A DNA stretch of 20,000 bases from an uncultured virus (IMG/VR IMGVR_UViG_3300038828_000030) (IMGVR_UViG_3300038828_000030), one strand, 5' to 3'. Shown: positions 4,992-19,126, numbered from the stretch's first letter. A program made the numbers and translations. The notes: generated by a model from the letters alone, not told the origin.

Positions 4992-5008
4992 TCAACCACG
5001 AGGAAACC

Positions 5009-5998
5009 ATGAACGCCATCACGAAACACGAGGGCCGCCTGCCTGCCCTGCAAATGGACGAACAGGAGCTGATTCAGGTGCTGCAATCGAGCCTGTACCC
5101 GGGGGCATCACTGTCCAGCATCAAGATGGTGCTTGGATACTGCAGGGCGTCTGGGCTCGATCCGATGCGCAAGCCCGTCCACATCGTGCCCATGTGGGAC
5201 AGCAAGGCCAAGCAAATGCGGGACGTGACGATGCCGGGGATAGGCCTGTATCGAACGGATGCAGCCCGCACTGGCGAGCACGTCGGCACGGATGATCCGG
5301 TGTTTGGACCCATGGTCGAGTACGAACTCAGCGGCTCAAAAGTCACGGTGCCGGAGTGGTGCAAGGTCACTGTCTATCGTCTCAAAAACGGCATGAAGTG
5401 CGCTTTCACAGCCACCGAATACTGGATCGAGAACTACGCCACGGCCGGCAAGGACAGCGCCGCGCCAAACACCATGTGGAAGAAACGCGGTCGCGGTCAA
5501 TTGGCGAAATGCGCCGAGGCCCAGGCTCTGCGCAAGGCGTTTCCCGAAGTCGGCAGCCAGCCCACCGCCGATGAAATGGAGGGCAAGGTGCTGGACATGG
5601 GGCCGGCCGAAGTCGTGCCGCAATCGCCTGCGCACTACCCCGCCGCCGAGTTCGACAAGAACTTGCCCGCCTGGCGCAGGGCCATCGAGGCCGGCAAGAA
5701 GGCCGCCGAAGACCTGATCGCCATGGTCGAAACCAAGGGCGCACTCACCGACGAACAGAAGGCCGCGCTGCGCGCCATCAAGCCGCCGCAGCCTGCCTCT
5801 GACGTGCAAGACGTGCAGCCCAAGGACGAAGCGCCAGCATTCACCTACGCCCAAGTGGCCGACAAGCTGTCCGCCGCCACCGACGTGGAGCAATTGGCCG
5901 AAGCCGGCAGCCTGATCGGAGCCGTGTCCAACGCGGATCACCGCGCCGAACTCGTGACCCTGTACGAACAACGCAGCGCCGAAATGGAGGCCGCATGA
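5009..5998 (+). CDS. bet: Phage recombination protein Bet (single-strand annealing protein)
   Basis: YCRASGLDPMRKPVHIVPMW, GIGLYRTDAARTG, MWKKRGRGQLAKCAEAQALRKAFP motifs; GAGGA RBS before ATG 5009. Confidence 0.92.
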   Translation: MNAITKHEGRLPALQMDEQELIQVLQSSLYPGASLSSIKMVLGYCRASGLDPMRKPVHIVPMWDSKAKQMRDVTMPGIGLYRTDAARTGEHVGTDDPVFGPMVEYELSGSKVTVPEWCKVTVYRLKNGMKCAFTATEYWIENYATAGKDSAAPNTMWKKRGRGQLAKCAEAQALRKAFPEVGSQPTADEMEGKVLDMGPAEVVPQSPAHYPAAEFDKNLPAWRRAIEAGKKAAEDLIAMVETKGALTDEQKAALRAIKPPQPASDVQDVQPKDEAPAFTYAQVADKLSAATDVEQLAEAGSLIGAVSNADHRAELVTLYEQRSAEMEAA

Positions 5999-7785
5999 AG
6001 ACCCTGACCCTGCAACAAGGATCGCCCGAATGGGCTGCTCACCGCGCTCGAAGCCTAAACGCCAGCGAGCTATCTGCGGCCATGGGCCTGTCCTCGTACA
6101 TCACCAGGTCGGCCCTCGTCAAACAGAAGGCGACAGGCATCGCCCCAGAGATTGACGCGGCCACTCAACACCGATTCAACAAGGGCCACGAGTTCGAGGC
6201 TATCGCGCGTCCATGGGCAGAGGAAATCATCGGGGAAGAACTTTTCCCTGTCGTACTGGCTGGCGAAGTTGATGCCCTGCCGCTGTCTGCGTCGCTTGAT
6301 GGACAAACCTTGACGGGTGATGTGACGTGGGAACACAAGAGCGGCAACGCGACGCTTCTGGCCCGTTTGGATGCTGGCGTCATCCCTGACGAATATCACC
6401 CCCAGATGGAGCAGGGCCTGCTGCTGTCTGGTGCAACTCGGTGCCTATTCATGGCGTCCAGTGGAGACCGTGAAGCCATGCGCTATGCGTGGTACGAGTC
6501 AAATCCTGAGTTGCGAGCCAAGATTGTTCCGACCTGGAGGCAATTTCAAGCGGATGTTGCCGCCTACGTCCCCACCGAACCCGCCGCGCCCGTCATGGCC
6601 GCGCCCATCGAAAGCCTGCCCGCCGTCGTGGTGCAGGTGCAAGGCGCGCTGACCGTTGGCGGCAACCTGGACGCCTTCGGTCAGGCCCTGCGCTCGTTCA
6701 TCGAGCGCATCCCCGCAAGACCGGCAACTGATATTGAGTTCGCAAACTGCGAAGCCGCCTGCAAGGCGCTGAAGAGGGCCGAGGACGCACTGACCCAGGC
6801 CGAAGACGGCGCGCTGGCGCAGATCAGCGACGTGGAGCTGATGCGCCGCACCGTGGCCGACCTCAAGGAGCTGGCACGGTCAACCCGCCTCGCGACTGAA
6901 AAGCTGGTCAAAGCCGAGAAAGACGCGCGCCGCACCGAGAAGGTCATGGCCGCGCGCCAAGCGTTTGAAACCCACGTCACGCGCCTGCAGATGGACATCA
7001 AAGGCGTGCGCCTGATCGTGCCCATGCCAGACTTCGGCGGCTCCATCAAGGGCCTGAGCAGCCTGGCAAGCATCGACGACAAGCTGACCGCCGCGCTGAT
7101 CGCCGGCAAGGCCGAGGCCAACACCCTCGCCAGCCGGATCGCGGGCAACCTGCAAACGCTCGACAGCGTGCCGCAGTACGCCCACCTGTTTGCTGACCGG
7201 CAGGAGCTGGCCTACAAGGACGCCGAGACGCTTGAGCTGCTGATGCAGAAGCGCGTCGATGCCGAGCGCGACCGCATCGAAGCCGAGCGCCAGCGTATCC
7301 AGCAGGACGAGGAACGCAAGGCCCGCGAAGCCGCCGAGCGCCAGGCCGAAGCGGAGCGCCAGCGCATCCGCGCCGAAGAGCAGCACAAGGCGCAGATGGA
7401 AGTCGCCGAAAAGCTGAAGGCTGAACAAGAGGCCGAGCGCCAAGCCAACGAAGACCGCCGCCGCATAGAAGCCCAGGCCGCAGAAGCCAAGAAGGCCGAA
7501 GCCGCCGCCCAGGCACAGCAGGCGATCCAGCAGGCCGAAGCGCCAGCCGCGCCAGCACCGGCGCCATGGGACGCCGACGAGGCGGCCACGCTCAAGTTGG
7601 GCGATGTGAACGCGCGCCTGGCGCCGATCCACGTCACCGCTGATGGCCTGCGCTCCATCGGCATTGAGCCGGCCGGGCGCGAGAAGAACGCGACGCTGTA
7701 CCGCGAAAGCCAGTTCGCGGAAATCTGCCAGGTGCTGGTGCTGCACCTGCAATCCGTCGTGCAGCCATCCGAGGCCACGGCATGA
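5995..7785 (+). CDS. YqaJ-like (lambda Exo family) exonuclease with long coiled-coil C-terminus
   Basis: QGSPEWAAHR, ASE, GHEFE, SASLDG, EHK, QMEQGL motifs; adjacent to bet. Confidence 0.92.
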   Translation: MKTLTLQQGSPEWAAHRARSLNASELSAAMGLSSYITRSALVKQKATGIAPEIDAATQHRFNKGHEFEAIARPWAEEIIGEELFPVVLAGEVDALPLSASLDGQTLTGDVTWEHKSGNATLLARLDAGVIPDEYHPQMEQGLLLSGATRCLFMASSGDREAMRYAWYESNPELRAKIVPTWRQFQADVAAYVPTEPAAPVMAAPIESLPAVVVQVQGALTVGGNLDAFGQALRSFIERIPARPATDIEFANCEAACKALKRAEDALTQAEDGALAQISDVELMRRTVADLKELARSTRLATEKLVKAEKDARRTEKVMAARQAFETHVTRLQMDIKGVRLIVPMPDFGGSIKGLSSLASIDDKLTAALIAGKAEANTLASRIAGNLQTLDSVPQYAHLFADRQELAYKDAETLELLMQKRVDAERDRIEAERQRIQQDEERKAREAAERQAEAERQRIRAEEQHKAQMEVAEKLKAEQEAERQANEDRRRIEAQAAEAKKAEAAAQAQQAIQQAEAPAAPAPAPWDADEAATLKLGDVNARLAPIHVTADGLRSIGIEPAGREKNATLYRESQFAEICQVLVLHLQSVVQPSEATA

Positions 7786-8182: not shown

Positions 8183-8413
8183 ATGAAAAACACTGATCAA
8201 TCGCGCCCGCCGTTCAAAATCAGCGGCGTCGCCACCATCAAGCACCTGAATGTCCGCAAGGAAGGCCCGGAGGACGAGAAGGTTCTGGCTGACGATGCTG
8301 CGCCCGAATGCACTTGTGCAGCGAAAGACATGACCTTTGGCCGATGCTGCAAGGTGACGCCCAACGCCCCGAGTTCAGCCGACGCGAAGCGGTCGGCTGG
8401 AATGAACTGTTAG
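8183..8413 (+). CDS. Chimeric hypothetical protein: unique N-terminus fused to the 81-bp repeat peptide and attC read-through
   Basis: C-terminal ADDAAPECTCAAKDMTFGRCCKVTPNA is identical to that of ORFs 11049 and 14053. Confidence 0.6.
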   Translation: MKNTDQSRPPFKISGVATIKHLNVRKEGPEDEKVLADDAAPECTCAAKDMTFGRCCKVTPNAPSSADAKRSAGMNC

Positions 8414-8415
8414 AA
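8359..8415 (-). other. attC site 1 (57 bp)
   Basis: Minus strand TTCTAAC-AGTTC-ATTCCAGC...GCTGAAC-TCGGGGC-GTTGGGC; imperfect hairpin with bulged bases. Confidence 0.85.
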
Positions 8416-8425
8416 GGCTGTATCC

Positions 8426-8662
8426 ATGAACAGACCAGAGCGAATTTACAACGTGAGCCAAACGCAATTGAGCGTTGCTAGGTTTTACGGCGGCTGCAAA
8501 TTCAACGGCGCGGATTATCACTACGACGCCGAAAGCGACACGCTGACACGCATGGACATTTGGCAAGCGCGATGCGCCAGCAGCAAGAAAGAAGCCGCGA
8601 AAGCAGCAAAGGCAGAGCGAGAAAAATGGATGAAGGCACAGCAGAGTTTTGCCGCCTTCTAA
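8426..8662 (+). CDS. Cassette-borne hypothetical protein (78 aa)
   Basis: Fills the interval between attC1 and attC2; stop TAA inside the TTCTAAC box. Confidence 0.8.
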   Translation: MNRPERIYNVSQTQLSVARFYGGCKFNGADYHYDAESDTLTRMDIWQARCASSKKEAAKAAKAEREKWMKAQQSFAAF

Positions 8663-8709
8663 CGCCGGAAATAAGCCGCCGCAGGTCGGCCTTGATTGAC
8701 CTGTTATGC
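8657..8709 (-). other. attC site 2 (53 bp)
   Basis: Minus strand GCATAAC-AGGTC-AATCAAGG...GCTTATT-TCCGGC-GTTAGAA. Confidence 0.85.
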
Positions 8710-8729
8710 AGAAACTTTAGGAATACCAA

Positions 8730-8981
8730 ATGGACACGATACAGCAAGAGCTTCGCAAGCCAGCGCACTATCTGAGCATGAGAAAGCGCGAGCAGGCTGC
8801 AAACTACATTGATAAGTTGCAAGCCGCCTTGAACCAGTACAGCGCAGACGAAGTGATGCTTACGCACCAATCAACTATCGCAGCGCAGGCCGAGCAAATC
8901 GAAGCCTTGACGCAGGCGATAGTCGAGCGAGACGCGATCATTTCGCAGTACATCGCAGCACTTGGCTATGTTGCGGCATAA
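8730..8981 (+). CDS. Cassette-borne coiled-coil hypothetical protein (83 aa)
   Basis: AGGA RBS after attC2; stop TAA inside GCATAAC. Confidence 0.75.
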   Translation: MDTIQQELRKPAHYLSMRKREQAANYIDKLQAALNQYSADEVMLTHQSTIAAQAEQIEALTQAIVERDAIISQYIAALGYVAA

Positions 8982-9027
8982 CCCGTGATTAGGCGACAAG
9001 CCCGCCCCGCGCCACGTCGCCTAATCA
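8976..9027 (-). other. attI-like simple site with a 12-bp inverted repeat
   Basis: Minus strand GTCGCCTAAT-CACGG-GTTATGC (L box, 5 bp, R box); TGATTAGGCGAC/GTCGCCTAATCA perfect inverted repeat; no second GTT/AAC box, so not an attC. Confidence 0.55.
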
Positions 9028-9079
9028 GCCACTGGCGCAAGCAAACCCCAATAGGCAAACCTAAAAAACCGAGGACGTA

Positions 9080-9748
9080 ATGACCCCGCTTGTACGTGAA
9101 ATGGCAGCCATCGTGCCGGAACCAGAAACCGCGCACTGGTTCGATCTGGGCACGATCCCCGGGCGCATCGAAGCCCAACGGGTGTATTGGGATGACATTC
9201 GCCACATGCCGTACCCGCGCACCATCGTGGTATTCATCACCGACAAAGGCAGCAAGGCCGCATGCTGGATACAGGCATCGGAACATTCGCTGTCCATGGC
9301 CTACCTGATGGTCGATCCAGGCAAAGCGCCTCGCTTTTCCATCCCCATTGTCATCACCGAGGTGGATGGCGAGCTGCGCTATGAAGCCAAGGGCGGCGAC
9401 GGCAAGGCCGCTGCGGGCGTGCTGTGTGCCATCGCCAAGCGCCTGCAAACCGCCAGTGCCGCCTACCGCCCCGAGTCGATTGGCACACCAGCGCAGCAGC
9501 GCAAGCGCGCGGCCAAAGGCAAGAGGCCACTGTTTGCATGGCACACCGTCACCATCGGCGCTACGCCCAAAGTAGCCATTGCTACGTCAGATGTAGCTGG
9601 CACGCACGCCAGCCCACGCGCGCACGACAGGCGCGGGCACTGGCGCACCTACCCCAGCGGCAAACGCAGCTGGGTCAAGCACTGCCGCGTCGGCAATCCT
9701 GCGGACGGGGTGGTGTTCAAGGATTACCGGATCAGGAGCGAGAAATGA
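9080..9748 (+). CDS. Uncharacterised phage protein with HASPRAHDRRGHWR motif (222 aa)
   Basis: GAGGA RBS; conserved-looking C-terminal HxRRGHWR motif. Confidence 0.8.
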   Translation: MTPLVREMAAIVPEPETAHWFDLGTIPGRIEAQRVYWDDIRHMPYPRTIVVFITDKGSKAACWIQASEHSLSMAYLMVDPGKAPRFSIPIVITEVDGELRYEAKGGDGKAAAGVLCAIAKRLQTASAAYRPESIGTPAQQRKRAAKGKRPLFAWHTVTIGATPKVAIATSDVAGTHASPRAHDRRGHWRTYPSGKRSWVKHCRVGNPADGVVFKDYRIRSEK

Positions 9749-10017
9749 GCACATACACACCACCCGACAAGATCGAGATTTACGCCGCCGCGCTGAAAAG
9801 CGACATCAACTCTGAGCGCTTCCAGGTTGTGGAGAGCGGCAGGCTCGAAACCTACTGGATCGGCACGGTATATGGCGGCGGCGTCGCAACCGAGCGCGGG
9901 CACAAATTTCGGACTGCAGAAGAGGCGTGGGACAACGCAAGCAAATTTGTGGAGCGCTGCGCGGAGATCGTCAGCGAGCGCGACCGCGCAGCCAAGGCAG
10001 GAGATCAGCATGGCTGA
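9745..10017 (+). CDS. Hypothetical phage protein (MSTYTPPDK..., 90 aa)
   Basis: AGGAG RBS, ATGA overlap. Confidence 0.7.
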   Translation: MSTYTPPDKIEIYAAALKSDINSERFQVVESGRLETYWIGTVYGGGVATERGHKFRTAEEAWDNASKFVERCAEIVSERDRAAKAGDQHG

Positions 10018-10108
10018 AAGCACGGTCTGGCGCGTGATGCACCCAGACGGCTCGCGCACGGTGGTGGGCGGTGGTTGCTCGGAGAAAGACAATGTCGCGT
10101 GCGCTTGA
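10010..10108 (+). CDS. Small hypothetical protein (MAESTVWRV..., 32 aa)
   Basis: AGGAG RBS; overlaps both neighbours. Confidence 0.45.
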   Translation: MAESTVWRVMHPDGSRTVVGGGCSEKDNVACA

Positions 10109-10700
10109 TGTGGTGACGCTGACCGGCGAGGAATACGACGACCTCATGGAATGCAAAGAGATGGTCGCCTCACTACTAGCCCAGTTGAGCGCCGCGAAAG
10201 ACCGAATTGCCGAATTGACGCCAGTTGCTGGAATGGACTGGCGGGAAACGATGCAGCGCATGCTGACACGCATGGAGGAAACAGACCGCTGGCCTGCGAT
10301 ATGCGACGAGGCGCGGGCCGTCCTGTCGCTGGCGAATGATGCCACCAGGGAGCCTGCCGCCTACCTGTGGGGCGGCTGCCTCTGGCGCACGGACGAAATG
10401 GGGCGCGGCAGACCTGGGGCAGTCGAACTGTATCGAGCGCAAACGCCGCTGACCGATGCCGACATTACCGCATTGCTTCCGATATGGCAGCAGGGATCAT
10501 GGACGCTGCCAGACTACGGCAGATGGGTAGCGCGGGCCGTCGAGCGGGCGCACGGGATCAAGACATCGCACAACCTATGCCTATCCTGCGGGCACAGCAT
10601 CGATGCCCACGACAAGCAATACGGCTGCGCAGAGGACGGGTGCGATTGCGAGACGCCCAACGATCAGCATAACCGGCCCGCTTCAGCGGGTCCGGGTTGA
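10092..10700 (+). CDS. Mosaic hypothetical phage protein with C-terminal CxSCGH...C...CxC motif, reading into attC4
   Basis: GGAG RBS before ATG 10092; ARAVERAHGI motif; stop inside attC4. Confidence 0.7.
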   Translation: MSRALDVVTLTGEEYDDLMECKEMVASLLAQLSAAKDRIAELTPVAGMDWRETMQRMLTRMEETDRWPAICDEARAVLSLANDATREPAAYLWGGCLWRTDEMGRGRPGAVELYRAQTPLTDADITALLPIWQQGSWTLPDYGRWVARAVERAHGIKTSHNLCLSCGHSIDAHDKQYGCAEDGCDCETPNDQHNRPASAGPG

Positions 10701-10714
10701 TGCGCCAGTTGGGC
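10655..10714 (-). other. attC site 4 (60 bp)
   Basis: Minus strand GCCCAAC-TGGCG-CATCAACC...GGTTATG-CTGATC-GTTGGGC. Confidence 0.88.
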
Positions 10715-10728
10715 GCGGGAGGTGAGAG

Positions 10729-11052
10729 ATGGGGACATACGTTGTTTGGTGCCCGGACCTGGGCCAGGATCAGGAAGACGGTGCGACGATCCCGGCGACC
10801 GACCCCGCCGATGCGGCGGAAGGGTGGGCCGAATGGCACGACCGCAGCAGTGCCGAATACCGGATTGCCAGCGGGCGCGAGGAGATCGTGATCGTCCGCG
10901 ACGTTGAGACAGGCGAGCAGCGCGAATGGATTGTGCGCGGCGAGGCGATGCCGTACTACACGGCGCAGCCTGGGGAGTCCGCGACGATCCGGGCGCAAGT
11001 GGCGCCGGGCCGATGGGAGGATGTTCCTAGACGTAGCGAGGCCAACGAATGA
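10729..11052 (+). CDS. Cassette-borne acidic hypothetical protein (107 aa)
   Basis: GGAGG RBS just after attC4. Confidence 0.8.
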   Translation: MGTYVVWCPDLGQDQEDGATIPATDPADAAEGWAEWHDRSSAEYRIASGREEIVIVRDVETGEQREWIVRGEAMPYYTAQPGESATIRAQVAPGRWEDVPRRSEANE

Positions 11053-11417
11053 AATGGCAGCCGATTGAAACCGCACCTACAGACGGCACCCGCATCCTGC
11101 TGCGCGGCAGGGGCGGCAAGATTGCGGATGGGCACTACGGACAGCCGGATGGGTGGGCAAACCCGAAGCGTTTTGTCTGGCCGTACATCCATGCTAATCC
11201 GACGCACTGGGCTCCGCTCCCGTTGATTGCTGCTGCGCCGGAAAACAAGAAATTGCGTGCCGCCATCGCAAAAGCAACAGGACGTGTGGTCGCTGACGAT
11301 GCTGCGCCCGAATGCACTTGTGCAGCGAAAGACATGACCTTTGGCCGATGCTGCAAGGTGACGCCCAACGCCCCGAGTTCAGCCGACGCGAAGCGGTCGG
11401 CTGGAATGAACTGTTAG
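11049..11417 (+). CDS. DUF551-like (WQPIETAP...PTHW) mosaic phage protein, reading through the attC1 copy
   Basis: WQPIETAPxDGTRILL...PTHWAPLP motif, then LIAAAPE/AAIAKA and a Cys-rich tail. Confidence 0.75.
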   Translation: MKWQPIETAPTDGTRILLRGRGGKIADGHYGQPDGWANPKRFVWPYIHANPTHWAPLPLIAAAPENKKLRAAIAKATGRVVADDAAPECTCAAKDMTFGRCCKVTPNAPSSADAKRSAGMNC

Positions 11418-11419
11418 AA
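11363..11419 (-). other. attC site 1, duplicate copy
   Basis: Identical to 8359-8415. Confidence 0.85.
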
Positions 11420-11429
11420 GGCTGTATCC

Positions 11430-11666
11430 ATGAACAGACCAGAGCGAATTTACAACGTGAGCCAAACGCAATTGAGCGTTGCTAGGTTTTACGGCGGCTG
11501 CAAATTCAACGGCGCGGATTATCACTACGACGCCGAAAGCGACACGCTGACACGCATGGACATTTGGCAAGCGCGATGCGCCAGCAGCAAGAAAGAAGCC
11601 GCGAAAGCAGCAAAGGCAGAGCGAGAAAAATGGATGAAGGCACAGCAGAGTTTTGCCGCCTTCTAA
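11430..11666 (+). CDS. Duplicate of 8426-8662
   Basis: Identical translation. Confidence 0.8.
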   Translation: MNRPERIYNVSQTQLSVARFYGGCKFNGADYHYDAESDTLTRMDIWQARCASSKKEAAKAAKAEREKWMKAQQSFAAF

Positions 11667-11713
11667 CGCCGGAAATAAGCCGCCGCAGGTCGGCCTTGAT
11701 TGACCTGTTATGC
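11661..11713 (-). other. attC site 2, duplicate copy
   Basis: Identical to 8657-8709. Confidence 0.85.
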
Positions 11714-11733
11714 AGAAACTTTAGGAATACCAA

Positions 11734-11985
11734 ATGGACACGATACAGCAAGAGCTTCGCAAGCCAGCGCACTATCTGAGCATGAGAAAGCGCGAGCAGG
11801 CTGCAAACTACATTGATAAGTTGCAAGCCGCCTTGAACCAGTACAGCGCAGACGAAGTGATGCTTACGCACCAATCAACTATCGCAGCGCAGGCCGAGCA
11901 AATCGAAGCCTTGACGCAGGCGATAGTCGAGCGAGACGCGATCATTTCGCAGTACATCGCAGCACTTGGCTATGTTGCGGCATAA
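11734..11985 (+). CDS. Duplicate of 8730-8981
   Basis: Identical translation. Confidence 0.75.
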   Translation: MDTIQQELRKPAHYLSMRKREQAANYIDKLQAALNQYSADEVMLTHQSTIAAQAEQIEALTQAIVERDAIISQYIAALGYVAA

Positions 11986-12031
11986 CCCGTGATTAGGCGA
12001 CAAGCCCGCCCCGCGCCACGTCGCCTAATCA
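11980..12031 (-). other. attI-like site, duplicate copy
   Basis: Identical to 8976-9027. Confidence 0.55.
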
Positions 12032-12083
12032 GCCACTGGCGCAAGCAAACCCCAATAGGCAAACCTAAAAAACCGAGGACGTA

Positions 12084-12752
12084 ATGACCCCGCTTGTACG
12101 TGAAATGGCAGCCATCGTGCCGGAACCAGAAACCGCGCACTGGTTCGATCTGGGCACGATCCCCGGGCGCATCGAAGCCCAACGGGTGTATTGGGATGAC
12201 ATTCGCCACATGCCGTACCCGCGCACCATCGTGGTATTCATCACCGACAAAGGCAGCAAGGCCGCATGCTGGATACAGGCATCGGAACATTCGCTGTCCA
12301 TGGCCTACCTGATGGTCGATCCAGGCAAAGCGCCTCGCTTTTCCATCCCCATTGTCATCACCGAGGTGGATGGCGAGCTGCGCTATGAAGCCAAGGGCGG
12401 CGACGGCAAGGCCGCTGCGGGCGTGCTGTGTGCCATCGCCAAGCGCCTGCAAACCGCCAGTGCCGCCTACCGCCCCGAGTCGATTGGCACACCAGCGCAG
12501 CAGCGCAAGCGCGCGGCCAAAGGCAAGAGGCCACTGTTTGCATGGCACACCGTCACCATCGGCGCTACGCCCAAAGTAGCCATTGCTACGTCAGATGTAG
12601 CTGGCACGCACGCCAGCCCACGCGCGCACGACAGGCGCGGGCACTGGCGCACCTACCCCAGCGGCAAACGCAGCTGGGTCAAGCACTGCCGCGTCGGCAA
12701 TCCTGCGGACGGGGTGGTGTTCAAGGATTACCGGATCAGGAGCGAGAAATGA
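12084..12752 (+). CDS. Duplicate of 9080-9748
   Basis: Identical translation. Confidence 0.8.
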   Translation: MTPLVREMAAIVPEPETAHWFDLGTIPGRIEAQRVYWDDIRHMPYPRTIVVFITDKGSKAACWIQASEHSLSMAYLMVDPGKAPRFSIPIVITEVDGELRYEAKGGDGKAAAGVLCAIAKRLQTASAAYRPESIGTPAQQRKRAAKGKRPLFAWHTVTIGATPKVAIATSDVAGTHASPRAHDRRGHWRTYPSGKRSWVKHCRVGNPADGVVFKDYRIRSEK

Positions 12753-13021
12753 GCACATACACACCACCCGACAAGATCGAGATTTACGCCGCCGCGCTGA
12801 AAAGCGACATCAACTCTGAGCGCTTCCAGGTTGTGGAGAGCGGCAGGCTCGAAACCTACTGGATCGGCACGGTATATGGCGGCGGCGTCGCAACCGAGCG
12901 CGGGCACAAATTTCGGACTGCAGAAGAGGCGTGGGACAACGCAAGCAAATTTGTGGAGCGCTGCGCGGAGATCGTCAGCGAGCGCGACCGCGCAGCCAAG
13001 GCAGGAGATCAGCATGGCTGA
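12749..13021 (+). CDS. Duplicate of 9745-10017
   Basis: Identical translation. Confidence 0.7.
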   Translation: MSTYTPPDKIEIYAAALKSDINSERFQVVESGRLETYWIGTVYGGGVATERGHKFRTAEEAWDNASKFVERCAEIVSERDRAAKAGDQHG

Positions 13022-13112
13022 AAGCACGGTCTGGCGCGTGATGCACCCAGACGGCTCGCGCACGGTGGTGGGCGGTGGTTGCTCGGAGAAAGACAATGTC
13101 GCGTGCGCTTGA
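13014..13112 (+). CDS. Duplicate of 10010-10108
   Basis: Identical translation. Confidence 0.45.
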   Translation: MAESTVWRVMHPDGSRTVVGGGCSEKDNVACA

Positions 13113-13704
13113 TGTGGTGACGCTGACCGGCGAGGAATACGACGACCTCATGGAATGCAAAGAGATGGTCGCCTCACTACTAGCCCAGTTGAGCGCCGCG
13201 AAAGACCGAATTGCCGAATTGACGCCAGTTGCTGGAATGGACTGGCGGGAAACGATGCAGCGCATGCTGACACGCATGGAGGAAACAGACCGCTGGCCTG
13301 CGATATGCGACGAGGCGCGGGCCGTCCTGTCGCTGGCGAATGATGCCACCAGGGAGCCTGCCGCCTACCTGTGGGGCGGCTGCCTCTGGCGCACGGACGA
13401 AATGGGGCGCGGCAGACCTGGGGCAGTCGAACTGTATCGAGCGCAAACGCCGCTGACCGATGCCGACATTACCGCATTGCTTCCGATATGGCAGCAGGGA
13501 TCATGGACGCTGCCAGACTACGGCAGATGGGTAGCGCGGGCCGTCGAGCGGGCGCACGGGATCAAGACATCGCACAACCTATGCCTATCCTGCGGGCACA
13601 GCATCGATGCCCACGACAAGCAATACGGCTGCGCAGAGGACGGGTGCGATTGCGAGACGCCCAACGATCAGCATAACCGGCCCGCTTCAGCGGGTCCGGG
13701 TTGA
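13096..13704 (+). CDS. Duplicate of 10092-10700
   Basis: Identical translation. Confidence 0.7.
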   Translation: MSRALDVVTLTGEEYDDLMECKEMVASLLAQLSAAKDRIAELTPVAGMDWRETMQRMLTRMEETDRWPAICDEARAVLSLANDATREPAAYLWGGCLWRTDEMGRGRPGAVELYRAQTPLTDADITALLPIWQQGSWTLPDYGRWVARAVERAHGIKTSHNLCLSCGHSIDAHDKQYGCAEDGCDCETPNDQHNRPASAGPG

Positions 13705-13718
13705 TGCGCCAGTTGGGC
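13659..13718 (-). other. attC site 4, duplicate copy
   Basis: Identical to 10655-10714. Confidence 0.88.
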
Positions 13719-13732
13719 GCGGGAGGTGAGAG

Positions 13733-14056
13733 ATGGGGACATACGTTGTTTGGTGCCCGGACCTGGGCCAGGATCAGGAAGACGGTGCGACGATCCCGGC
13801 GACCGACCCCGCCGATGCGGCGGAAGGGTGGGCCGAATGGCACGACCGCAGCAGTGCCGAATACCGGATTGCCAGCGGGCGCGAGGAGATCGTGATCGTC
13901 CGCGACGTTGAGACAGGCGAGCAGCGCGAATGGATTGTGCGCGGCGAGGCGATGCCGTACTACACGGCGCAGCCTGGGGAGTCCGCGACGATCCGGGCGC
14001 AAGTGGCGCCGGGCCGATGGGAGGATGTTCCTAGACGTAGCGAGGCCAACGAATGA
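13733..14056 (+). CDS. Duplicate of 10729-11052
   Basis: Identical translation. Confidence 0.8.
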   Translation: MGTYVVWCPDLGQDQEDGATIPATDPADAAEGWAEWHDRSSAEYRIASGREEIVIVRDVETGEQREWIVRGEAMPYYTAQPGESATIRAQVAPGRWEDVPRRSEANE

Positions 14057-14379
14057 AATGGCAGCCGATTGAAACCGCACCTACAGACGGCACCCGCATC
14101 CTGCTGCGCGGCAGGGGCGGCAAGATTGCGGATGGGCACTACGGACAGCCGGATGGGTGGGCAAACCCGAAGCGTTTTGTCTGGCCGTACATCCATGCTA
14201 ATCCGACGCACTGGGCTCCGCTCCCGTTGATTGCTGCTGCGCCGGAAAACAAGAAATTGCGTGCCGCCATCGCAAAAGCAACAGGACGTGTGGTCGCTGA
14301 CGATGCTGCGCCCGAATGCACTTGTGCAGCGAAAGACATGACCTTTGGCCGATGCTGCAAGGTGACGCCCAACGCCTGA
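14053..14379 (+). CDS. DUF551-like protein, second copy, with a shorter C-terminus set by attC5
   Basis: Identical to 11049 up to ...VTPNA, then TGA inside attC5. Confidence 0.75.
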   Translation: MKWQPIETAPTDGTRILLRGRGGKIADGHYGQPDGWANPKRFVWPYIHANPTHWAPLPLIAAAPENKKLRAAIAKATGRVVADDAAPECTCAAKDMTFGRCCKVTPNA

Positions 14380-14422
14380 ATTAAGCCGCGCCGAAGGCGT
14401 CGGCTTGAATGAATTGTTAGGG
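14367..14422 (-). other. attC site 5 (56 bp, aadA-type)
   Basis: Minus strand CCCTAAC-AATTC-ATTCAAGC-CGACGCC-TTC-GGCGCG-GCTTAAT-TCAGGC-GTTGGGC. Confidence 0.95.
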
Positions 14423-14448
14423 CGCATTGCCCGAAAAGGAAAGCAAAA

Positions 14449-14784
14449 ATGCTTGATGTGAAAATTGTCCTCGACGCAGTGCCGGACTACTTGTTCAAGG
14501 CGTGCGGCGCAGAAACGCAAGATGAGCGCGACACCGTCGCGGCATGCGTGCGGACGTATGCCCGCGACTGCATCACCGCGACGCTTCTCACCATTGAAGA
14601 TGGGCCGATCTTCAAGGATGCCTGGCGCTACCGCGTGATGGTGGAAAACGGCGCAGTACCCACGCAATGGCACGAAATCATCAGCGAACAGCGCGAAGGA
14701 TTCCGGGCACGCGCGGACGCCGCGTTTGACGATTTCGTTTCCGAGGAACTTTCGGATTACGAGTACGGTGAACATGCGCCCTAA
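14449..14784 (+). CDS. Cassette-borne hypothetical protein (111 aa)
   Basis: AAGGA RBS; stop TAA inside CCCTAAC. Confidence 0.8.
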   Translation: MLDVKIVLDAVPDYLFKACGAETQDERDTVAACVRTYARDCITATLLTIEDGPIFKDAWRYRVMVENGAVPTQWHEIISEQREGFRARADAAFDDFVSEELSDYEYGEHAP

Positions 14785-14838
14785 CGGCTGAGATAACCTG
14801 CGCGCTTTAGCGCGTCCGAGTTGATTGATGGGTTAGGA
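14779..14838 (-). other. attC site 6 (60 bp)
   Basis: + strand CCCTAAC-GGCTGA-GATAACC...AGTTGATT-GATGG-GTTAGGA. Confidence 0.8.
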
Positions 14839-14844
14839 GTAAGC

Positions 14845-15066
14845 ATGAAAAACGAAGAAATTTTTTACACGCACAAACAAAACGCTGTGGTGGATAACAG
14901 CGGAAAGCAGATAGCGATTGTTCTGCCTAGTAATTGCACTATGCGCGAAGCACGGGCCATGGCTGCTTTTGCTGCGCAGCAAATGAATCATGAGCTGCGA
15001 GCGAAAAAATTGAAGAAATCTAACGCCAAGGTAAGCGGCGGCGGCGCTTTTCCGCCGTCCGCTTGA
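14845..15066 (+). CDS. Cassette-borne hypothetical protein (MKNEEIF..., 73 aa), reads into attC7
   Basis: AGGAG RBS overlaps the end of attC6; visibly AT-richer than flanks. Confidence 0.75.
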   Translation: MKNEEIFYTHKQNAVVDNSGKQIAIVLPSNCTMREARAMAAFAAQQMNHELRAKKLKKSNAKVSGGGAFPPSA

Positions 15067-15080
15067 CCGACGTGTTATGC
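15018..15080 (-). other. attC site 7 (63 bp)
   Basis: + strand ATCTAAC-GCCAA-GGTAAGC-GGCGGCGG...CCGCCGTCC-GCTTGACC-GACGT-GTTATGC. Confidence 0.88.
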
Positions 15081-15097
15081 CTTTTGAGGATGATGCG

Positions 15098-15481
15098 ATG
15101 AAGAAGAAATACGACCCGCTGAAAGTGGAAAAGAGCGACCACCCTGACCTTGTTGGCGGGATTGTGTGGGCCGACTGCGAACTGGACTGGATTCGCGCCT
15201 ACGGGACGCGCTGCTACAACCACGGCAACGCAAAAGGCATGGAAGCCGGAAGGCTGCTGTTTGAAGAACCGAAAGTCGGCGCTGGCGATACGGCGGTAGT
15301 GACGAAGGAAATGATCGGCGCTGCGCACGACGTGATGCTGGCGAAGGGCGATTTCGTTCTGTCCGCCGCGCTGTTGGAGCGCATCTATTTGGCGATGGCT
15401 GCGAAGAGGCATAACACCCGATTAGACGACACCGCAGCCGCCATTGACGCCGCGCGCAGCGCAGGAGGGCAAGAGCCATGA
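15098..15481 (+). CDS. Cassette-borne hypothetical protein (MKKKYDPL...), reads through the attI-like site
   Basis: GAGGA RBS after attC7; ATGA overlap downstream. Confidence 0.75.
   Translation: MKKKYDPLKVEKSDHPDLVGGIVWADCELDWIRAYGTRCYNHGNAKGMEAGRLLFEEPKVGAGDTAVVTKEMIGAAHDVMLAKGDFVLSAALLERIYLAMAAKRHNTRLDDTAAAIDAARSAGGQEP
15409..15430 (-). other. Second attI-like simple site
   Basis: Minus strand GTCGTCTAAT-CGGGT-GTTATGC; same GCATAAC-N5-ATTAGRCGAC pattern as 8976-8997. Confidence 0.55.
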
Positions 15482-15942
15482 CAACTGACACCCGTCCCCT
15501 GGAGCCGACAGACGACGAGTTAGACGAACTGCGTCAAGCGAACAGCGGGCGACTGAACTTCGTCACGTTTCGTGAGTTCCGAGTAATTGCCCGCGCAGTC
15601 CTTGCCAAGTGGGGCACTCCCGCCACTGTGGGGGTGGAGCCGGTGGCGCGACTGGCGGTTGGGAAAACAAAAGGTGGCGTTTCGCTCACTCACATAGCCG
15701 AGCCAGCGGCCTTTCAGCTTCCAGAAGGCATGTATGCCCTCTACACCCCCCAGCAGCCCACCCAAGCCGTGCCGCCTGTAGGGCGGGAGCCGTTGCCATT
15801 CACTCCACGACAGCGCGAACGCCTGTTCAAAAACCGCCCGACCAATGTCGGCAAGGACTTGGCGCTGGCCGACTGGCATCGCGTGGTGGAATTTATCGAG
15901 GTCGCACACGGCATCAAAGGAGGCCAGCATGGCACTGAGTGA
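15478..15942 (+). CDS. Mosaic hypothetical phage protein (154 aa; ARAVLAKWG, EVAHGI motifs)
   Basis: GGAGG upstream, ATGA overlap. Confidence 0.75.
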   Translation: MTTDTRPLEPTDDELDELRQANSGRLNFVTFREFRVIARAVLAKWGTPATVGVEPVARLAVGKTKGGVSLTHIAEPAAFQLPEGMYALYTPQQPTQAVPPVGREPLPFTPRQRERLFKNRPTNVGKDLALADWHRVVEFIEVAHGIKGGQHGTE

Positions 15943-16207
15943 CGAACTGGAAGCACTGGCAAAGCGCCACGGTGCACTGAGCTACCGCAACCGCGCAGAC
16001 ACGCAGAACCCGGCCTTCGGGTTTTCGGTGGCGGGGCTGGAAAGCCTTCTGGCCGAAGTCCGCAAGCGGGATGAGGCGCTGATCCGCCAGCTTGTCGAGG
16101 CGCTGGAGGATTTTGACGACGCGGGGCCAATTGGCGAGGGCTGGAAATCAGACCGGCTGTTATCGCTGCTCGCATCCGCCCGTGCGCGGCTGGAGGGCAA
16201 GCCATGA
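15929..16207 (+). CDS. Hypothetical phage protein (MALSDELE..., 92 aa)
   Basis: AGGAGG RBS; ATGA overlap downstream. Confidence 0.75.
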   Translation: MALSDELEALAKRHGALSYRNRADTQNPAFGFSVAGLESLLAEVRKRDEALIRQLVEALEDFDDAGPIGEGWKSDRLLSLLASARARLEGKP

Positions 16208-16494
16208 CCCACGACGAGATCATGGCGATGGCGCGCGAGGCTGGGTTCCGGACGGGGCAAATCAACCTGTCCAATGGCCCCCCTGTGCCGTTCATCGCCC
16301 CGGCATCCGGGACGAGCTGCATGTTCGAGCTGGAACGCTTCGCCGCCCTGGTAGCTTCCGCCGAGCGCGAGGCGTGCGCGGCGCTGATCGAGAGCACGAC
16401 AGAGCGCAGCAGATGGATTCGCTGCGGCATCAACGGCACGCCCATAGAGCCGTGCCAGTACGCCGCAGCGATCCGCGCAAGGGGCAAGCCATGA
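16204..16494 (+). CDS. Hypothetical phage protein (MTHDEIMAMAREAG...LERFAALV...EREACA...AAAIRARG)
   Basis: GGAGG RBS; motif pattern common in small betaproteobacterial phage ORFs. Confidence 0.8.
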   Translation: MTHDEIMAMAREAGFRTGQINLSNGPPVPFIAPASGTSCMFELERFAALVASAEREACAALIESTTERSRWIRCGINGTPIEPCQYAAAIRARGKP

Positions 16495-16583
16495 GCCGCC
16501 GCGCCCGCACCCGGCGCGACAAGCGCCAGCCCATCGCCCCGAGTTCACCGGCTGCGAAGCAGTCCGGTGGAATGAATGGTTAG
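16491..16583 (+). CDS. Short ORF MSRRARTRRDKRQP..., interrupted by and reading into attC9
   Basis: ATGA overlap; after ~14 codons it enters the attC. Confidence 0.4.
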   Translation: MSRRARTRRDKRQPIAPSSPAAKQSGGMNG

Positions 16584-16585
16584 CG
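16529..16585 (-). other. attC site 9 (57 bp) with a non-canonical R' box GATGGGC
   Basis: + strand GCCCATC-GCCCCGA-GTTCACC-GGCTGC-GAA-GCAGTCC-GGTGGAAT-GAATG-GTTAGCG. Confidence 0.8.
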
Positions 16586-16603
16586 AACTGAAAGGATGAA
16601 GAG

Positions 16604-16783
16604 ATGGACTTGGACGACGTAAAAGAAATCGTAGCCAGGGCGACTGACAACAATTACGAAGAAGTCGATATTGTGTGCCTCCAGTGGCTGGAAGGCATTA
16701 CGTATGGTCATGGAAAAGATGGCGAGACGGCTCGAAAGTTGCTCGCTATTGTGCGGGAACTCATTGATATTGATGCAGGCTAA
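16604..16783 (+). CDS. Cassette-borne hypothetical protein (59 aa, MDLDDVKEIVARATDNNYEEV...)
   Basis: AAGGA RBS after attC9; stop TAA inside GGCTAAC; below the ORF-track cutoff. Confidence 0.7.
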   Translation: MDLDDVKEIVARATDNNYEEVDIVCLQWLEGITYGHGKDGETARKLLAIVRELIDIDAG

Positions 16784-16833
16784 CGCCTGAGATAACCGGC
16801 TGCGCAGCAGTCCGGTTGATGGACGGGTTAGGC
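16778..16833 (-). other. attC site 10 (56 bp)
   Basis: + strand GGCTAAC-GCCTGA-GATAACC-GGCTGC-GCA-GCAGTCC-GGTTGATG-GACGG-GTTAGGC. Confidence 0.9.
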
Positions 16834-16862
16834 GCGCGGTTGATTGACGAAAGGACAGACGA

Positions 16863-17195
16863 ATGCACCCGAGAGAGAAAGCGGCTATTGCCGCAACCCT
16901 GAGCGATGCCGGACTGCTGGACCGCGTGCGCGCCGTGGCTGGCCGCGACGTTGGCGACCCGCTGAACAACGCGCAGGACAGCGTGGCGCTGCGCGAGCAG
17001 TTCGACCTGACGGTTGAGTTCACGCACAGCAGCGTGATGGCGTTCAACGATGACGGCGTGTGCGCGACGCTGCGCTGCCACGCGCCCGACTCGCAACAGT
17101 GGTCGCGGCGTGCCGCGTGCGTGGCGGTGGCCTCGATGTGGACCCCGGCCATTGGCAAAGCCGCGCGGGCGGCAAGCGCCCAACGCCTGAATTAA
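16863..17195 (+). CDS. Cassette-borne hypothetical phage protein (110 aa; DPLNNAQDSVAL...RRA motif)
   Basis: AAGGA RBS; stop inside attC11. Confidence 0.75.
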   Translation: MHPREKAAIAATLSDAGLLDRVRAVAGRDVGDPLNNAQDSVALREQFDLTVEFTHSSVMAFNDDGVCATLRCHAPDSQQWSRRAACVAVASMWTPAIGKAARAASAQRLN

Positions 17196-17233
17196 GCCGC
17201 GCCGAAGGCGTCGGCTTGAATTGCTTGTTAGAT
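17178..17233 (-). other. attC site 11 (56 bp, near-identical to attC5)
   Basis: First 44 nt identical to 14367-14410; ends TGCTT-GTTAGAT. Confidence 0.93.
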
Positions 17234-19125: not shown

Positions 19126-19126
19126 T

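What the first reader, a model, noticed from the sequence alone, without database searches (positions are those of the whole stretch)
8359..17233. All attC sites are inverted relative to their genes: the phage coding strand is the recombinogenic bottom strand
Seen: on the + strand the bulged bases fall in the RIGHT arm, usually as T and G (site 5 GGCG[T]CGGCTT[G]AAT; site 10 GCAG[T]CCGGTT[G]ATG; site 7 CCG[T]CCGCTT[G]ACC). The 5-nt spacer is always on the right (GAACT, GACCT, CGCCA, GAATT, GATGG, GACGT, GAATG, GACGG, TGCTT). Established: in canonical cassettes the 5-nt R''-L'' spacer comes first after the gene, and the extrahelical G/T lie on the non-coding bottom strand. So here each attC sits at the 5' end of its own gene, in 9 of 9 distinct sites. 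Inference: such cassettes would be antisense to Pc (silent) in a host integron but expressed from the phage early promoter. This may be a distinct, phage-adapted cassette class.
Basis: partly seen in the sequence, partly recalled or inferred. Interest (0 to 1): 0.88.

Follow-up and report, generated by a model that had tools for sequence, protein, structure and literature searches.

The report
Phage gene cassettes with reversed attC polarity
A phage from activated sludge carries a row of integron-type recombination sites that all point the opposite way, relative to their genes, from bacterial integrons, and dozens of other phage contigs share this layout, which suggests phages trade their own pool of gene cassettes.

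Summary
The window is a phage region: RecT/RecE early genes on +, spanin and endolysin on -. Between them lie 12 attC sites (9 distinct, 3 duplicated).

A covariance model built only from canonical top strands hits all 12 on the minus strand (17.9-69.3 bits; plus strand 9.9 bits or less). The training strands were five sites of an intI-linked array plus attC_aadA1 of plasmid R100. So the plus (coding) strand is the recombinogenic bottom strand.

Related contigs show each attC travelling with the gene downstream of it. Homology breaks at the left R box (RYYYAA|C), the canonical crossover.

The layout recurs. In 46 viral loci with this attC family, array genes lie 205 on the bottom strand and 10 on the top. 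In bacterial genome arrays the split is 68 to 419. The clearest bottom-strand case there is a Rhodanobacter prophage.

Cultured phage H101, whose sites IntI1 recombines (Qi 2023), is also reversed. TJE1 and P12002L are canonical, so this is no universal phage rule.

One phage contig encodes its own IntI, downstream of and co-directional with reversed cassettes.

Phage attC clusters are known. Systematic reversal appears undescribed. IntI activity, strand preference and expression remain untested here.

The parts
4988..7785 (+). RecT-like annealing protein (4988-5998) and RecE-like exonuclease (5995-7785): the phage early recombination module upstream of the array, on the same strand
   Evidence: Pfam RecT 2.6e-22, YqaJ 3.7e-05; phrog_2449 1.1e-94, phrog_7655 4.8e-145
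8360..8414 (+). attC A, bottom strand on +; upstream ORF 8183-8413 reads through it and stops in the GTTAG box
   Evidence: R1 hit on minus strand 42.3 bits; fold
8658..8708 (+). attC B, bottom strand on +; the TAA stop of ORF 8426-8662 lies in its TCTAAC box
   Evidence: R1 minus strand 32.9 bits
8972..9035 (+). Hairpin C: a left R box (CATAAC) and a perfect 11-bp inverted repeat, but no GTT box and no bulges; likely a decayed attC. Copy at 11976-12039
   Evidence: sequence; not found by R1 at E up to 10
10656..10713 (+). attC D, bottom strand on +; the weakest match
   Evidence: R1 minus strand 17.9 bits, plus strand 9.9 bits; the module shared with L020 starts at its AAC, 10659
8288..14376 (+). 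Tandem duplication: 3004-bp unit twice (8288-11291, 11292-14295) plus 81 nt of a third copy. The period equals the distance between the left R boxes of A, A' and E (8363, 11367, 14371). It duplicates attCs A, B, hairpin C and D (copies at 11364-11418, 11662-11712, 11976-12039, 13660-13717)
   Evidence: the repeat finder D2 and D5 at 100% identity; model hits
14368..14421 (+). attC E, bottom strand on +; nearly identical to attC_aadA1/aadA7 bottom strands and to sites of the G001 integron
   Evidence: R1 minus strand 69.3 bits, plus strand 8.3; junction in L053
14780..14837 (+). attC F, bottom strand on +
   Evidence: R1 minus strand 29.0 bits, plus strand 7.9
15019..15079 (+). attC G, bottom strand on +; clean bulged T and G in the right arm
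   Evidence: R1 minus strand 37.5 bits; fold -15.3 kcal/mol with T37 and G44 unpaired
16530..16584 (+). attC I, bottom strand on +, with ATC in place of the AAC cleavage triplet (probably inactive at that box)
   Evidence: R1 minus strand 31.3 bits; sequence
16779..16832 (+). attC J, bottom strand on +
   Evidence: R1 minus strand 39.7 bits
17179..17232 (+). attC K, bottom strand on +; last site of the array; 95% identical to E apart from the right spacer
   Evidence: R1 minus strand 58.7 bits; the repeat finder D3
8183..17195 (+). Array genes, all on +: 8183-8413, 8426-8662, 8730-8981, 9080-9748, 9745-10017, 10010-10108, 10092-10700, 10729-11052, 11049-11417 (and their duplicates), 14053-14379, 14449-14784, 14845-15066, 15077-15481, 15478-15942, 15929-16207, 16204-16494, 16604-16783, 16863-17195. 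Units between attCs hold 1 to 4 overlapping genes
   Evidence: ORF list; codon-position GC; codon log-odds calls; phrog_21008 for 10729-11052; homologs in L020, L034, L053, L010, L006, L008, L055
17353..18865 (-). Rz-like spanin (17353-18162) and endolysin (18074-18865), converging on the end of the array
   Evidence: DUF2514 3.3e-19, Phage_lysozyme 6.6e-42; phrog_312, phrog_7

Best explanation
What it is. These are genuine integron-type attC sites inside a phage early operon, forming a cluster with no integrase nearby. Their gene polarity is reversed. Each mobile unit is an attC followed by one to four genes on the attC bottom strand, and it ends at the AA of the next R box.

How it moves (inferred). 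An integron integrase folds the single-stranded + strand of two sites. The enzyme comes from the host or, in some relatives, from the phage. It exchanges strands at the 5' RYYYAA|C box. Units are thereby excised, inserted, swapped between phages and duplicated.

How it is expressed (inferred). The genes are read by through-transcription of the phage early operon, not from an integron Pc promoter. Inserted into a bacterial integron, they would face Pc.

Why the polarity is reversed (inferred, about 50%). The integron platform sits in a one-directional phage operon with intI at its far end, as in contig G006. The geometry between intI and attC is kept, so only genes on the bottom strand are co-directional with phage transcription. 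A phage-specific cassette pool with this polarity then spread across phage backbones, most of which lack intI.

A side effect. The bottom strand becomes the non-template strand. If replication runs with the genes, it is also the lagging-strand template, which is the configuration reported to raise cassette excision.
For: Shown here.
(1) Strand. All 12 window sites match a canonical top-strand model on the minus strand. They are near-identical to the bottom strands of attC_aadA1, of aadA7 as used experimentally, and of an array next to a true IntI scoring 489 bits on TIGR02249.
(2) Structure is under selection. Across 142 phage-contig sites, 94.3% of cells pair. Fifteen of 20 pairs show changes on both sides. 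None of 500 shuffles reaches the observed covariation score. Slid controls pair 46.6% or less. The central AAC/GTT pairs are invariant or nearly so (this alignment was fitted to the model).
(3) Crossover position. The L053 junction falls inside AACGCCTGA. L020 shares a module running from AAC to AAC. Of 35 homology ends near attCs, 21 lie at the bottom-strand 5' R box. One contig joins 8660 to 10659, the left R box of B to the left R box of D.
(4) Recurrence. In 46 viral loci, array genes lie 205 on the bottom strand and 10 on the top. In bacterial genome loci the split is 68 and 419 (Fisher p about 5e-102, but the genes are not independent). Twenty-five in-array genes with PHROG matches are all on the bottom strand.
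(5) Different backbones. The arrays sit beside a DNA-polymerase/gp2.5 module in a complete phage with terminal repeats, beside RecT/RecE, beside Erf plus exonuclease, beside a serine integrase and beside a primase-helicase.
(6) A phage integron. G006/L243 has a true IntI (446 bits) directly downstream of, and co-directional with, reversed cassettes. Spanin and tail-fibre genes lie beyond it.
(7) Published activity. Phage H101 has the reversed layout, and Qi et al. 2023 report that IntI1 recombines two of its sites, bottom strand better than top.
(8) Separate pool. Of 230 viral array proteins, 5 have a hit in the bacterial loci. All 5 hits are in prophage loci L079 and L105, and none is in a canonical array.
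Against: No recombination, strand preference or transcription was measured for these sites.

The model R1 was trained on six closely related sequences, so part of its strand discrimination comes from sequence rather than structure.

The viral loci were all found with one attC-family pattern, and many share RecT/RecE. The 46 loci are therefore fewer independent lineages than they appear.

Gene strands come from my own simple codon-score caller. It made visible errors: it missed the spanin and called 9724-10092 on the minus strand.

Six of 35 homology ends lie at the other R box and six lie inside sites. Several contig joints do not fall at R boxes.

Two of three experimentally studied phage clusters (TJE1, P12002L) are canonical.

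Only 1 of the 29 phage-type records searched carries intI (30 records were searched; the other positive, G001, is a canonical array). The intI-in-operon origin therefore rests on one contig, rated 14% complete.

Site I lacks AAC and hairpin C lacks an R box, so part of the array may be decaying.
Confidence: 0.72

Rival explanations
1. The sites are IntI substrates, but the reversed polarity is selected for recombination rate, not set by operon geometry. Phage genes run with replication and transcription. Putting the bottom strand on the coding strand makes it the lagging-strand template and the non-template strand. The sites then fold often and the array turns over fast whenever IntI is present.
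For: Richard et al. 2024 report that cassette excision rises from below 7e-5 to 3e-2 when bottom strands are moved to the lagging-strand template (passages). The array region has positive GC skew on +. Arrays differ in content between closely related contigs and between samples.
Against: The replication direction of this phage is unknown. GC skew in phages also follows transcription. The idea does not explain why TJE1 and P12002L are canonical. It is compatible with the main explanation rather than exclusive of it.
Confidence: 0.15
2. The hairpins are intergenic repeats of the phage itself. They would serve as short homology for RecT/RecE-type module exchange or as RNA-level regulators. Their likeness to attC would come from one old capture, and IntI would play no role.
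For: Many arrays sit beside annealing-protein and exonuclease genes. Twenty-eight of the 29 phage-type records searched have no intI. Some homology ends and joints fall inside sites.
Against: At the L053 junction the two parental attCs share only nine identical bases. That is too few for homology-driven exchange, and the stretch contains the AA|C cleavage point. Compensatory changes preserve the hairpin, the AAC/GTT triplets are invariant and the bulges stay on one arm. Those are the features IntI reads. The sites belong to the same family as those of bacterial integrons. The H101 sites work with IntI1. No terminator-like signal above shuffles was found.
Confidence: 0.08
3. Artefact. A fragment of a bacterial integron was captured or mis-assembled into a phage contig, and the real cassette genes are on the minus strand.
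For: High-GC DNA gives long antisense ORFs here, for example 13960-14775 on the minus strand. The exact 3-kb tandem repeat could be an assembly product.
Against: The minus ORFs cross attC sites and score worse. The + ORFs carry ribosome-binding sites, overlap start-to-stop, match PHROGs and have homologs on the same relative strand in many contigs. The same stretch is held by 20 runs from 9 studies. No window array protein hits any of the bacterial array loci.
Confidence: 0.03

Closest known systems
Clusters of attC sites lacking an integrase (CALINs) in phage genomes (Qi et al. 2023, PMC9892861)
   Same: Arrays of attC sites between small phage genes, with no intI nearby. DNA methyltransferases are among the cargo. 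Sites of three virulent phages were recombined by IntI1, bottom strand better than top (sections and supplement read).
   Different: That paper describes the arrays as resembling typical bacterial arrays. In the parts I read it does not compare gene strand with attC strand. Here the genes lie on the bottom strand. From its own bottom-strand sequences I find H101 reversed, and TJE1 and P12002L canonical.
Chromosomal integrons of Lysobacterales/Xanthomonadales, and class 1 cassettes aadA1/aadA7
   Same: The same attC sequence family. Site E is almost identical to attC_aadA1/aadA7 and to sites of the G001 array. The pattern is found mainly in Luteimonas, Lysobacter, Xanthomonas and Rhodanobacter.
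   Different: There the genes are on the top strand, read away from intI: 419 top against 68 bottom, and 12 against 0 in G001. Here they are on the bottom strand.
Reverse-oriented cassettes (mostly toxin-antitoxin) in sedentary chromosomal integrons (background in Richard et al. 2024, PMC13108822; the statement about their share is recalled)
   Same: Cassettes whose ORF is antisense to the array direction and which therefore need another promoter.
   Different: In bacteria they are a minority scattered among canonical cassettes. Here whole arrays are reversed and are read by an external phage operon.
Inverted integron-integrase group (Treponema and others; Cury et al. 2016, PMC4889954, passage)
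   Same: intI and cassette genes are co-directional, as in phage contig G006.
   Different: In that group the intI gene is flipped relative to the attC sites. In G006 the intI-attC geometry is canonical and the cassette ORFs are flipped instead, so intI lies downstream of the cassettes.

Membership tests
Integron attC recombination site | Inverse core sites RYYYAAC and GTTRRRY at the two ends, with conserved AAC/GTT triplets | tested here: met
   Eight of 9 distinct sites have AAC...GTT; site I has ATC. In 138 distinct phage-contig sites two of the three AAC/GTT pairs never vary and the third varies in 2.
Integron attC recombination site | Imperfect hairpin whose structure is conserved while its sequence varies | tested here: met
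   94.3% of cells paired; 15 of 20 pairs with changes on both sides; 0 of 500 shuffles reach the covariation score; slid controls 46.6% or less (the alignment was fitted to the model).
Integron attC recombination site | Extrahelical bases and unequal spacers that mark one strand as the bottom strand (Nivina et al. 2016, passages) | tested here: met
   Bulged T/G in the right arm and a 5-nt right spacer on + in 9 of 9 sites. This mirrors the canonical top strand of attC_aadA1. The model hits the minus strand only.
Integron attC recombination site | Strand exchange at AA|C of the R' box of the bottom strand | tested here: met
   Indirect, from comparisons: the L053 junction, the L020 module ends, the end of the triple repeat, 21 of 35 homology ends and one contig joint from 8660 to 10659.
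Integron attC recombination site | Recombined by an integron integrase as folded single-stranded DNA | not testable with these tools
   Only by analogy: the near-identical aadA7 bottom strand and the H101 sites recombine with IntI1 in Qi et al. 2023.
Canonical integron gene cassette | Promoterless ORF on the attC top strand, followed by its own attC, expressed from Pc | tested here: not met
   Window array genes: 14 on the bottom strand and 1 (a doubtful call) on the top. The attC travels with the downstream gene. Some units hold 4 overlapping genes.
CALIN (attC cluster without integrase) | Two or more attC sites on one strand less than 4 kb apart, with no intI next to them (definition in Cury et al. 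2016) | tested here: met
   Twelve co-oriented sites. No IntI-like match in the window by tblastn at E 1e-3, and no Phage_integrase hit among the 33 ORFs scanned. Only 20 kb is visible.
Complete integron | intI with an adjacent attI and array | tested here: not met
   Not in the window. Met in relative G006 (446 bits, above the cut-off of 265).
Tailed-phage genome region | Phage recombination and lysis genes flanking the feature | tested here: met
   RecT, RecE-like, endolysin and spanin. No whole genome is held for the window.

The most novel reading that the evidence does not exclude
Phages of integron-bearing bacteria run a mirror-image integron system. A cassette pool separate from the host's, with genes on the attC bottom strand, is exchanged among unrelated temperate and virulent phages by host or phage-encoded IntI. 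The cargo is rich in DNA-modification and other likely anti-defence genes. The reversed polarity keeps these genes expressed in one-directional phage operons and silent if a host integron captures them. It also places the recombinogenic strand where it is most often single-stranded. This would be the phage counterpart of integrons acting as banks of anti-phage defence.
Probability: 0.4. Interest if true: 0.9.

Novelty: new variant of a known kind. Interest (0 to 1): 0.78.

Why it matters
Integrons are usually described as bacterial devices. Their cassettes are promoterless genes on the attC top strand, and strand selectivity exists to keep them readable from Pc.

Here whole arrays break that rule in one consistent direction, across dozens of phage contigs, a prophage and one cultured phage. 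One phage even carries its own integron integrase behind such an array.

If IntI really shuffles these units, phages have a site-specific way to swap accessory genes. That could explain part of the mosaicism of phage early regions. Methyltransferases, a queuine tRNA-ribosyltransferase homolog, a radical SAM protein and DHH phosphoesterases are among the cargo.

It would also mean that the host and phage cassette pools use the same recombinase but are insulated from each other at the level of expression.

The idea is directly testable with standard strand-specific attC assays, and by re-reading existing IntegronFinder output with gene strands attached.

Tried and rejected
- Rfam gave no family at gathering thresholds; it holds no attC model.
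- A generic AAC...GTT fold scan was too noisy to use. A first arm-alignment script crashed on hairpin C, which lacks GTT.
- Megablast of the whole window against cultured phages matched only the methyltransferase gene.
- Site E against cultured phages found only a P1 carrying class 1 integrons and a Salmonella record.
- Earlier notes of this scan held nothing.
- The promoter and terminator scans were not above shuffles: 3 against 3.1, and 18 against 16.3. I found no promoter for the array and no sign that attCs act as terminators.
- nhmmer profiles agreed with the model on strand in 107 of 107 shared sites but missed 73 of 180. They were used only for the bacterial loci.
- Laying contigs of four runs gave one clean joint from R box to R box. 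The many other joints and loose ends are probably from related phages and from bacterial attCs of the same family. Contigs cannot give copy number, so the 3-kb duplication could not be checked.
- The stretch is present in contigs of RNA libraries, but that does not show transcription or strand.
- The idea that the window array is a captured piece of a host integron was dropped, for the reasons given under the artefact rival.
- Literature searches for a description of reversed phage cassettes found none. A fourth search was rejected for a malformed term and was not repeated.
- No structure, complex or large protein-homology searches were run, because cassette function was not the question.

Full report
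**Context**

The window is part of a tailed-phage genome.
- On the + strand it carries a RecT-like annealing protein (4988-5998) and a RecE-like exonuclease (5995-7785).
- On the - strand it carries a C5 DNA methyltransferase (512-2287), an Rz-like spanin (17353-18162) and an endolysin (18074-18865).
- No whole genome is held for it.
- The stretch 8000-17500 is held by 20 public runs from 9 studies of activated sludge, wastewater, freshwater and biofilm.
- Between RecE and the spanin lies a run of small + strand ORFs separated by conserved hairpins.

**The observation**

Nine distinct sites (A, B, D, E, F, G, I, J, K) have the form RYYYAAC, spacer, arm, loop, arm, 5-nt spacer, GTTRR on the + strand. 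A, B and D occur twice because of a 3004-bp tandem duplication.

In constrained DNA folds, the unpaired base inside the G+C-rich stem is in the right arm in all nine:
- T in B, D, E, G, I, J and K
- G in A
- C/C/A in F

Site G shows the full picture cleanly, with bulged T37 and G44 and 5-nt spacers.

- Site I has ATC instead of AAC.
- A tenth hairpin (8972-9035 and its copy) has a left R box but no right one and no bulges.

**Which strand is which**

I did not rely on memory for the canonical layout.
- In plasmid R100 the aadA1 coding strand reads GTCTAAC, a 5-nt spacer, then an arm with an extra C and an extra A. After the loop come the other arm, a 6-nt spacer and GTTAGAT. Its complement is almost letter for letter site E on the window's + strand.
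- The bottom strand of attC_aadA7 printed in Supplementary Table S3 of Qi et al. 2023 is also nearly identical to E. That strand is the standard recombinogenic substrate.
- Viral record G001 holds a true integron integrase (TIGR02249 489 bits, cut-off 265). Its array genes run away from intI. The attC strand that looks like the window's + strand is the non-coding one there.
- Nivina et al. 2016 place cleavage in the AAC of R' on the bottom strand and the extrahelical bases near L'' (passages).

I then built a covariance model (R1) from six canonical top strands, five from G001 and attC_aadA1, using the known structure. I searched the window with filters off. Twelve sites match at E of 0.011 or less, all on the minus strand (69.3 to 17.9 bits). 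The best plus-strand score at any of them is 9.9 bits.

R1 also assigns the published bottom strands correctly in phages TJE1 and H101.

Caveat: the six training sequences are 93% identical on average, so R1 discriminates partly by sequence.

**The genes are on +**
- Codon-position G+C favours the + ORFs.
- A codon log-odds caller, trained on 171 long ORFs from related contigs, puts the array genes on +. After removing duplicates the count is 14 on + and 1 on -.
- ORF 10729-11052 matches phrog_21008 at E 4.9e-41.
- Eleven of the array proteins have homologs on the same relative strand in other viral contigs.
- The caller is crude: it missed the spanin. It does recover the opposite, canonical polarity in G001 (12 against 0).

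**Each attC belongs to the gene after it**
- In L053 the homolog of window gene 16604-16783 is followed by an E-type attC and the homolog of gene 14449-14784. In the window, a J-type attC follows gene 16604-16783. The sequence switches from J context to E context inside GGCTAAC|GCCTGA. The two parents share only nine bases there.
- L020 shares exactly 10659-11370, from the AAC of D to the AAC of A.
- The 81-nt tail of gene 11049 occurs three times at 100% identity. It is followed twice by attC A and once by attC E, diverging after AACGCC. Gene 11049's product therefore has 122 or 108 residues, depending on the next unit.
- Among 35 homology ends that fall near attCs in all-against-all comparisons of viral loci, 21 lie at the 5' R box of the bottom strand. 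Six lie at the other R box, six inside sites and two just outside.
- One contig from a public run joins 8660 to 10659, the left R box of B to the left R box of D. Other joints in that call are untidy and are not used as evidence.

**The sites are under structural selection**

In 142 model-aligned sites from the window and 43 viral loci (138 distinct rows):
- 94.3% of cells form pairs.
- Fifteen of 20 pairs change on both sides.
- None of 500 shuffles reaches the covariation score.
- Slid controls pair 46.6% or less.
- Two of the three AAC/GTT pairs never vary.

The alignment was fitted to the model, which favours pairing.

**How general is the reversed polarity**

An IUPAC pattern taken from sites E, J and K found 58 stretches in viral contigs.

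Viral loci:
- R1 found 210 matches in 53 of these sources at E of 0.01 or less.
- I dropped duplicate loci and second-strand hits, and counted genes lying inside or next to arrays in 46 loci.
- Ten genes lie on the top strand and 205 on the bottom.
- Forty-three loci are mostly bottom, one is mostly top (L015) and two are tied.
- Of 23 arrays with at least three sites and three genes, 22 are mostly bottom and none mostly top.
- Twenty-five in-array genes with PHROG matches at E of 1e-5 or less in eight annotated loci are all on the bottom strand.

Bacterial loci:
- The same pattern in bacterial genomes found 181 stretches, with about 1700 estimated. Most are Lysobacterales/Xanthomonadales and some are Burkholderiales.
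- With nhmmer site calls, genes there lie 419 on the top strand and 68 on the bottom.
- Of 34 larger arrays, 32 are mostly top.
- The clear exception, L079 in Rhodanobacter caeni, is a prophage. It reads CI-like repressor, Erf, exonuclease, SSB, the array, then an integrase.
- The viral exception L015 is a filamentous phage.

The contrast is extreme (Fisher p about 1e-13 on arrays). The loci are not independent, however. All were found with one attC family and many share RecT/RecE.

**Several backbones**

The arrays sit in different phage types:
- a complete 59-kb genome with terminal repeats that has its own DNA polymerase, helicase, gp2.5-like SSB and exonuclease (G005/L036, ten sites)
- RecT/RecE phages (the window, L006, L025, L054, L017, L024)
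- an Erf-plus-exonuclease phage (L013)
- a phage with a serine integrase (L004)
- one with a primase-helicase (L049)

Array cargo in those loci includes:
- six DNA methyltransferases inside arrays and two more directly beside them
- two DHH phosphoesterases
- a radical SAM protein
- a queuine tRNA-ribosyltransferase homolog
- a PAPS-reductase homolog

This has a DNA-modification flavour, as Qi et al. also noted for phage cassettes. The window's own array proteins have no Pfam match, and only one has a PHROG match, to a family of unknown function.

**Who supplies the integrase**

The window has no IntI-like sequence. Of 30 viral records searched with TIGR02249, two are positive above the cut-off:
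- G001, the canonical array.
- G006/L243.

In G006, intI (10838-11779, 446 bits) lies at the end of a + strand run of reversed cassettes, which includes two N6_N4 methyltransferases. Only a GCCTAAC box and about 40 nt separate intI from the last cassette gene. Beyond intI come a spanin, a DUF5675 protein and a tail-fibre gene on the other strand.

The attC-to-intI geometry in G006 is the canonical one. Only the gene polarity is flipped, so cassettes and intI form one transcriptional direction.

Six records rated 93-100% complete have no intI (G003, G004, G005, G010, G019, G026). Those phages would depend on a host enzyme.

**Published phages**

Using the bottom strands printed by Qi et al.:
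- TJE1 has its sites' bottom strand opposite to its genes, so it is canonical.
- In P12002L the active site follows a methyltransferase gene canonically.
- H101 has three sites whose bottom strand is on the same strand as all 12 annotated genes of the region, each site followed by a gene. Qi et al. report that two of these sites integrate at attI1 with IntI1 as well as attC_aadA7, and better as bottom than as top strand.

The reversed layout therefore already exists in a cultured virulent phage with experimentally active sites. The text I read describes its array as typical. I could not see the figures or the Dryad annotation file, which may show the strands.

**Explanation and its limits**

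What is shown:
- The identity of the sites and their strand.
- Their linkage to the downstream genes.
- The crossover position.
- The recurrence of the layout.
- A phage-borne IntI.

What is inferred:
- That IntI acts on these sites during infection or induction.
- That the genes are read from the phage early promoter.
- That they would be silent in a host integron.
- The reason for the polarity.

I favour operon geometry as the reason. An integron platform whose intI is read at the end of a one-directional phage operon can only express cassette genes that lie on the bottom strand. A pool of such cassettes then spreads among phages. IntI-mediated insertion at non-att sites is one way to seed new genomes (Loot et al. 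preprint, passages).

Selection for a frequently single-stranded bottom strand is a compatible alternative (Richard et al. 2024).

Of 230 viral array proteins, only 5 hit the sampled bacterial loci, all in prophages. This fits a separate pool, but only about 5 of 64 parts of the genome collection were sampled.

**Novelty**

attC clusters in phages are known. Three literature searches, together with the sections and passages I read of Qi et al. 2023, Cury et al. 2016, Nivina et al. 2016 and Richard et al. 2024, turned up no description of systematic reversal of gene polarity relative to attC in phage arrays. They also turned up no phage integron with cassettes reading into intI. That is absence from my searches, not proof of absence from the literature.

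Noticed in passing
window 8288-14376: Exact 3004-bp tandem duplication (two copies plus 81 nt). Its period equals the spacing of the left R boxes of A, A' and E. It looks like a four-unit block (A, B, hairpin C, D) inserted twice, as excision and re-insertion by an integrase would give. It could equally be an assembly product.
   Followed up: partly
window 11049-11417 versus 14053-14379: The same gene ends differently depending on the next unit. It reads through attC A to a TAG in the GTTAG box (122 aa), or stops at a TGA in the spacer of attC E (108 aa). In five other cases the stop codon is the TAA of the RYYYAAC box. The C-terminal tails of these proteins are therefore encoded by the neighbour's attC.
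   Followed up: partly
L243 (G006) 9500-13800: A phage contig with a true integron integrase (446 bits) placed at the end of a run of reversed cassettes and just before lysis and tail genes, where a temperate phage would carry int. A GCCTAAC box lies about 40 nt upstream of the intI start. Whether this is an attI was not examined.
   Followed up: partly
L079 (Rhodanobacter caeni contig) 7999-19530: Lambdoid prophage with a reversed attC array between the Erf/exonuclease/SSB genes and a tyrosine integrase. It gives a named host lineage for this kind of phage. L105 (Pseudothauera rhizosphaerae) is identical to viral locus L018 over the genes compared.
   Followed up: partly
L015 1-6247: Filamentous-phage contig (Zot-like assembly protein, replication initiator, ssDNA-binding protein) with two attC sites in canonical polarity at its end. 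It may be an inovirus sitting beside or inside an integron array.
   Followed up: no
window 16533-16535: Site I carries ATC where every other site has the AAC cleavage triplet, yet it keeps the hairpin and bulges. It is a natural knock-out control for an assay.
   Followed up: no
window 3724-4662: An 18-nt tandem repeat (26 registers) inside a 312-aa ORF is the DNA image of a hexapeptide-repeat (left-handed beta-helix) protein: Pfam Hexapep 4.1e-36. G+C reaches 0.72 here.
   Followed up: partly
window 16194-16482: Gene 16204-16494 is bracketed by a 13-nt direct repeat (GGCAAGCCATGA core). One contig from another sample lacks it exactly between the repeats. This is gene loss or gain at a start/stop overlap, not at an attC.
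   Followed up: no
L240 (phage H101, NC_029094 73419-78476): A cultured virulent Pseudoalteromonas phage has three attC sites whose published bottom strand lies on the coding strand of all 12 neighbouring genes. This is the same reversed layout as the window, next to its endolysin gene.
   Followed up: yes
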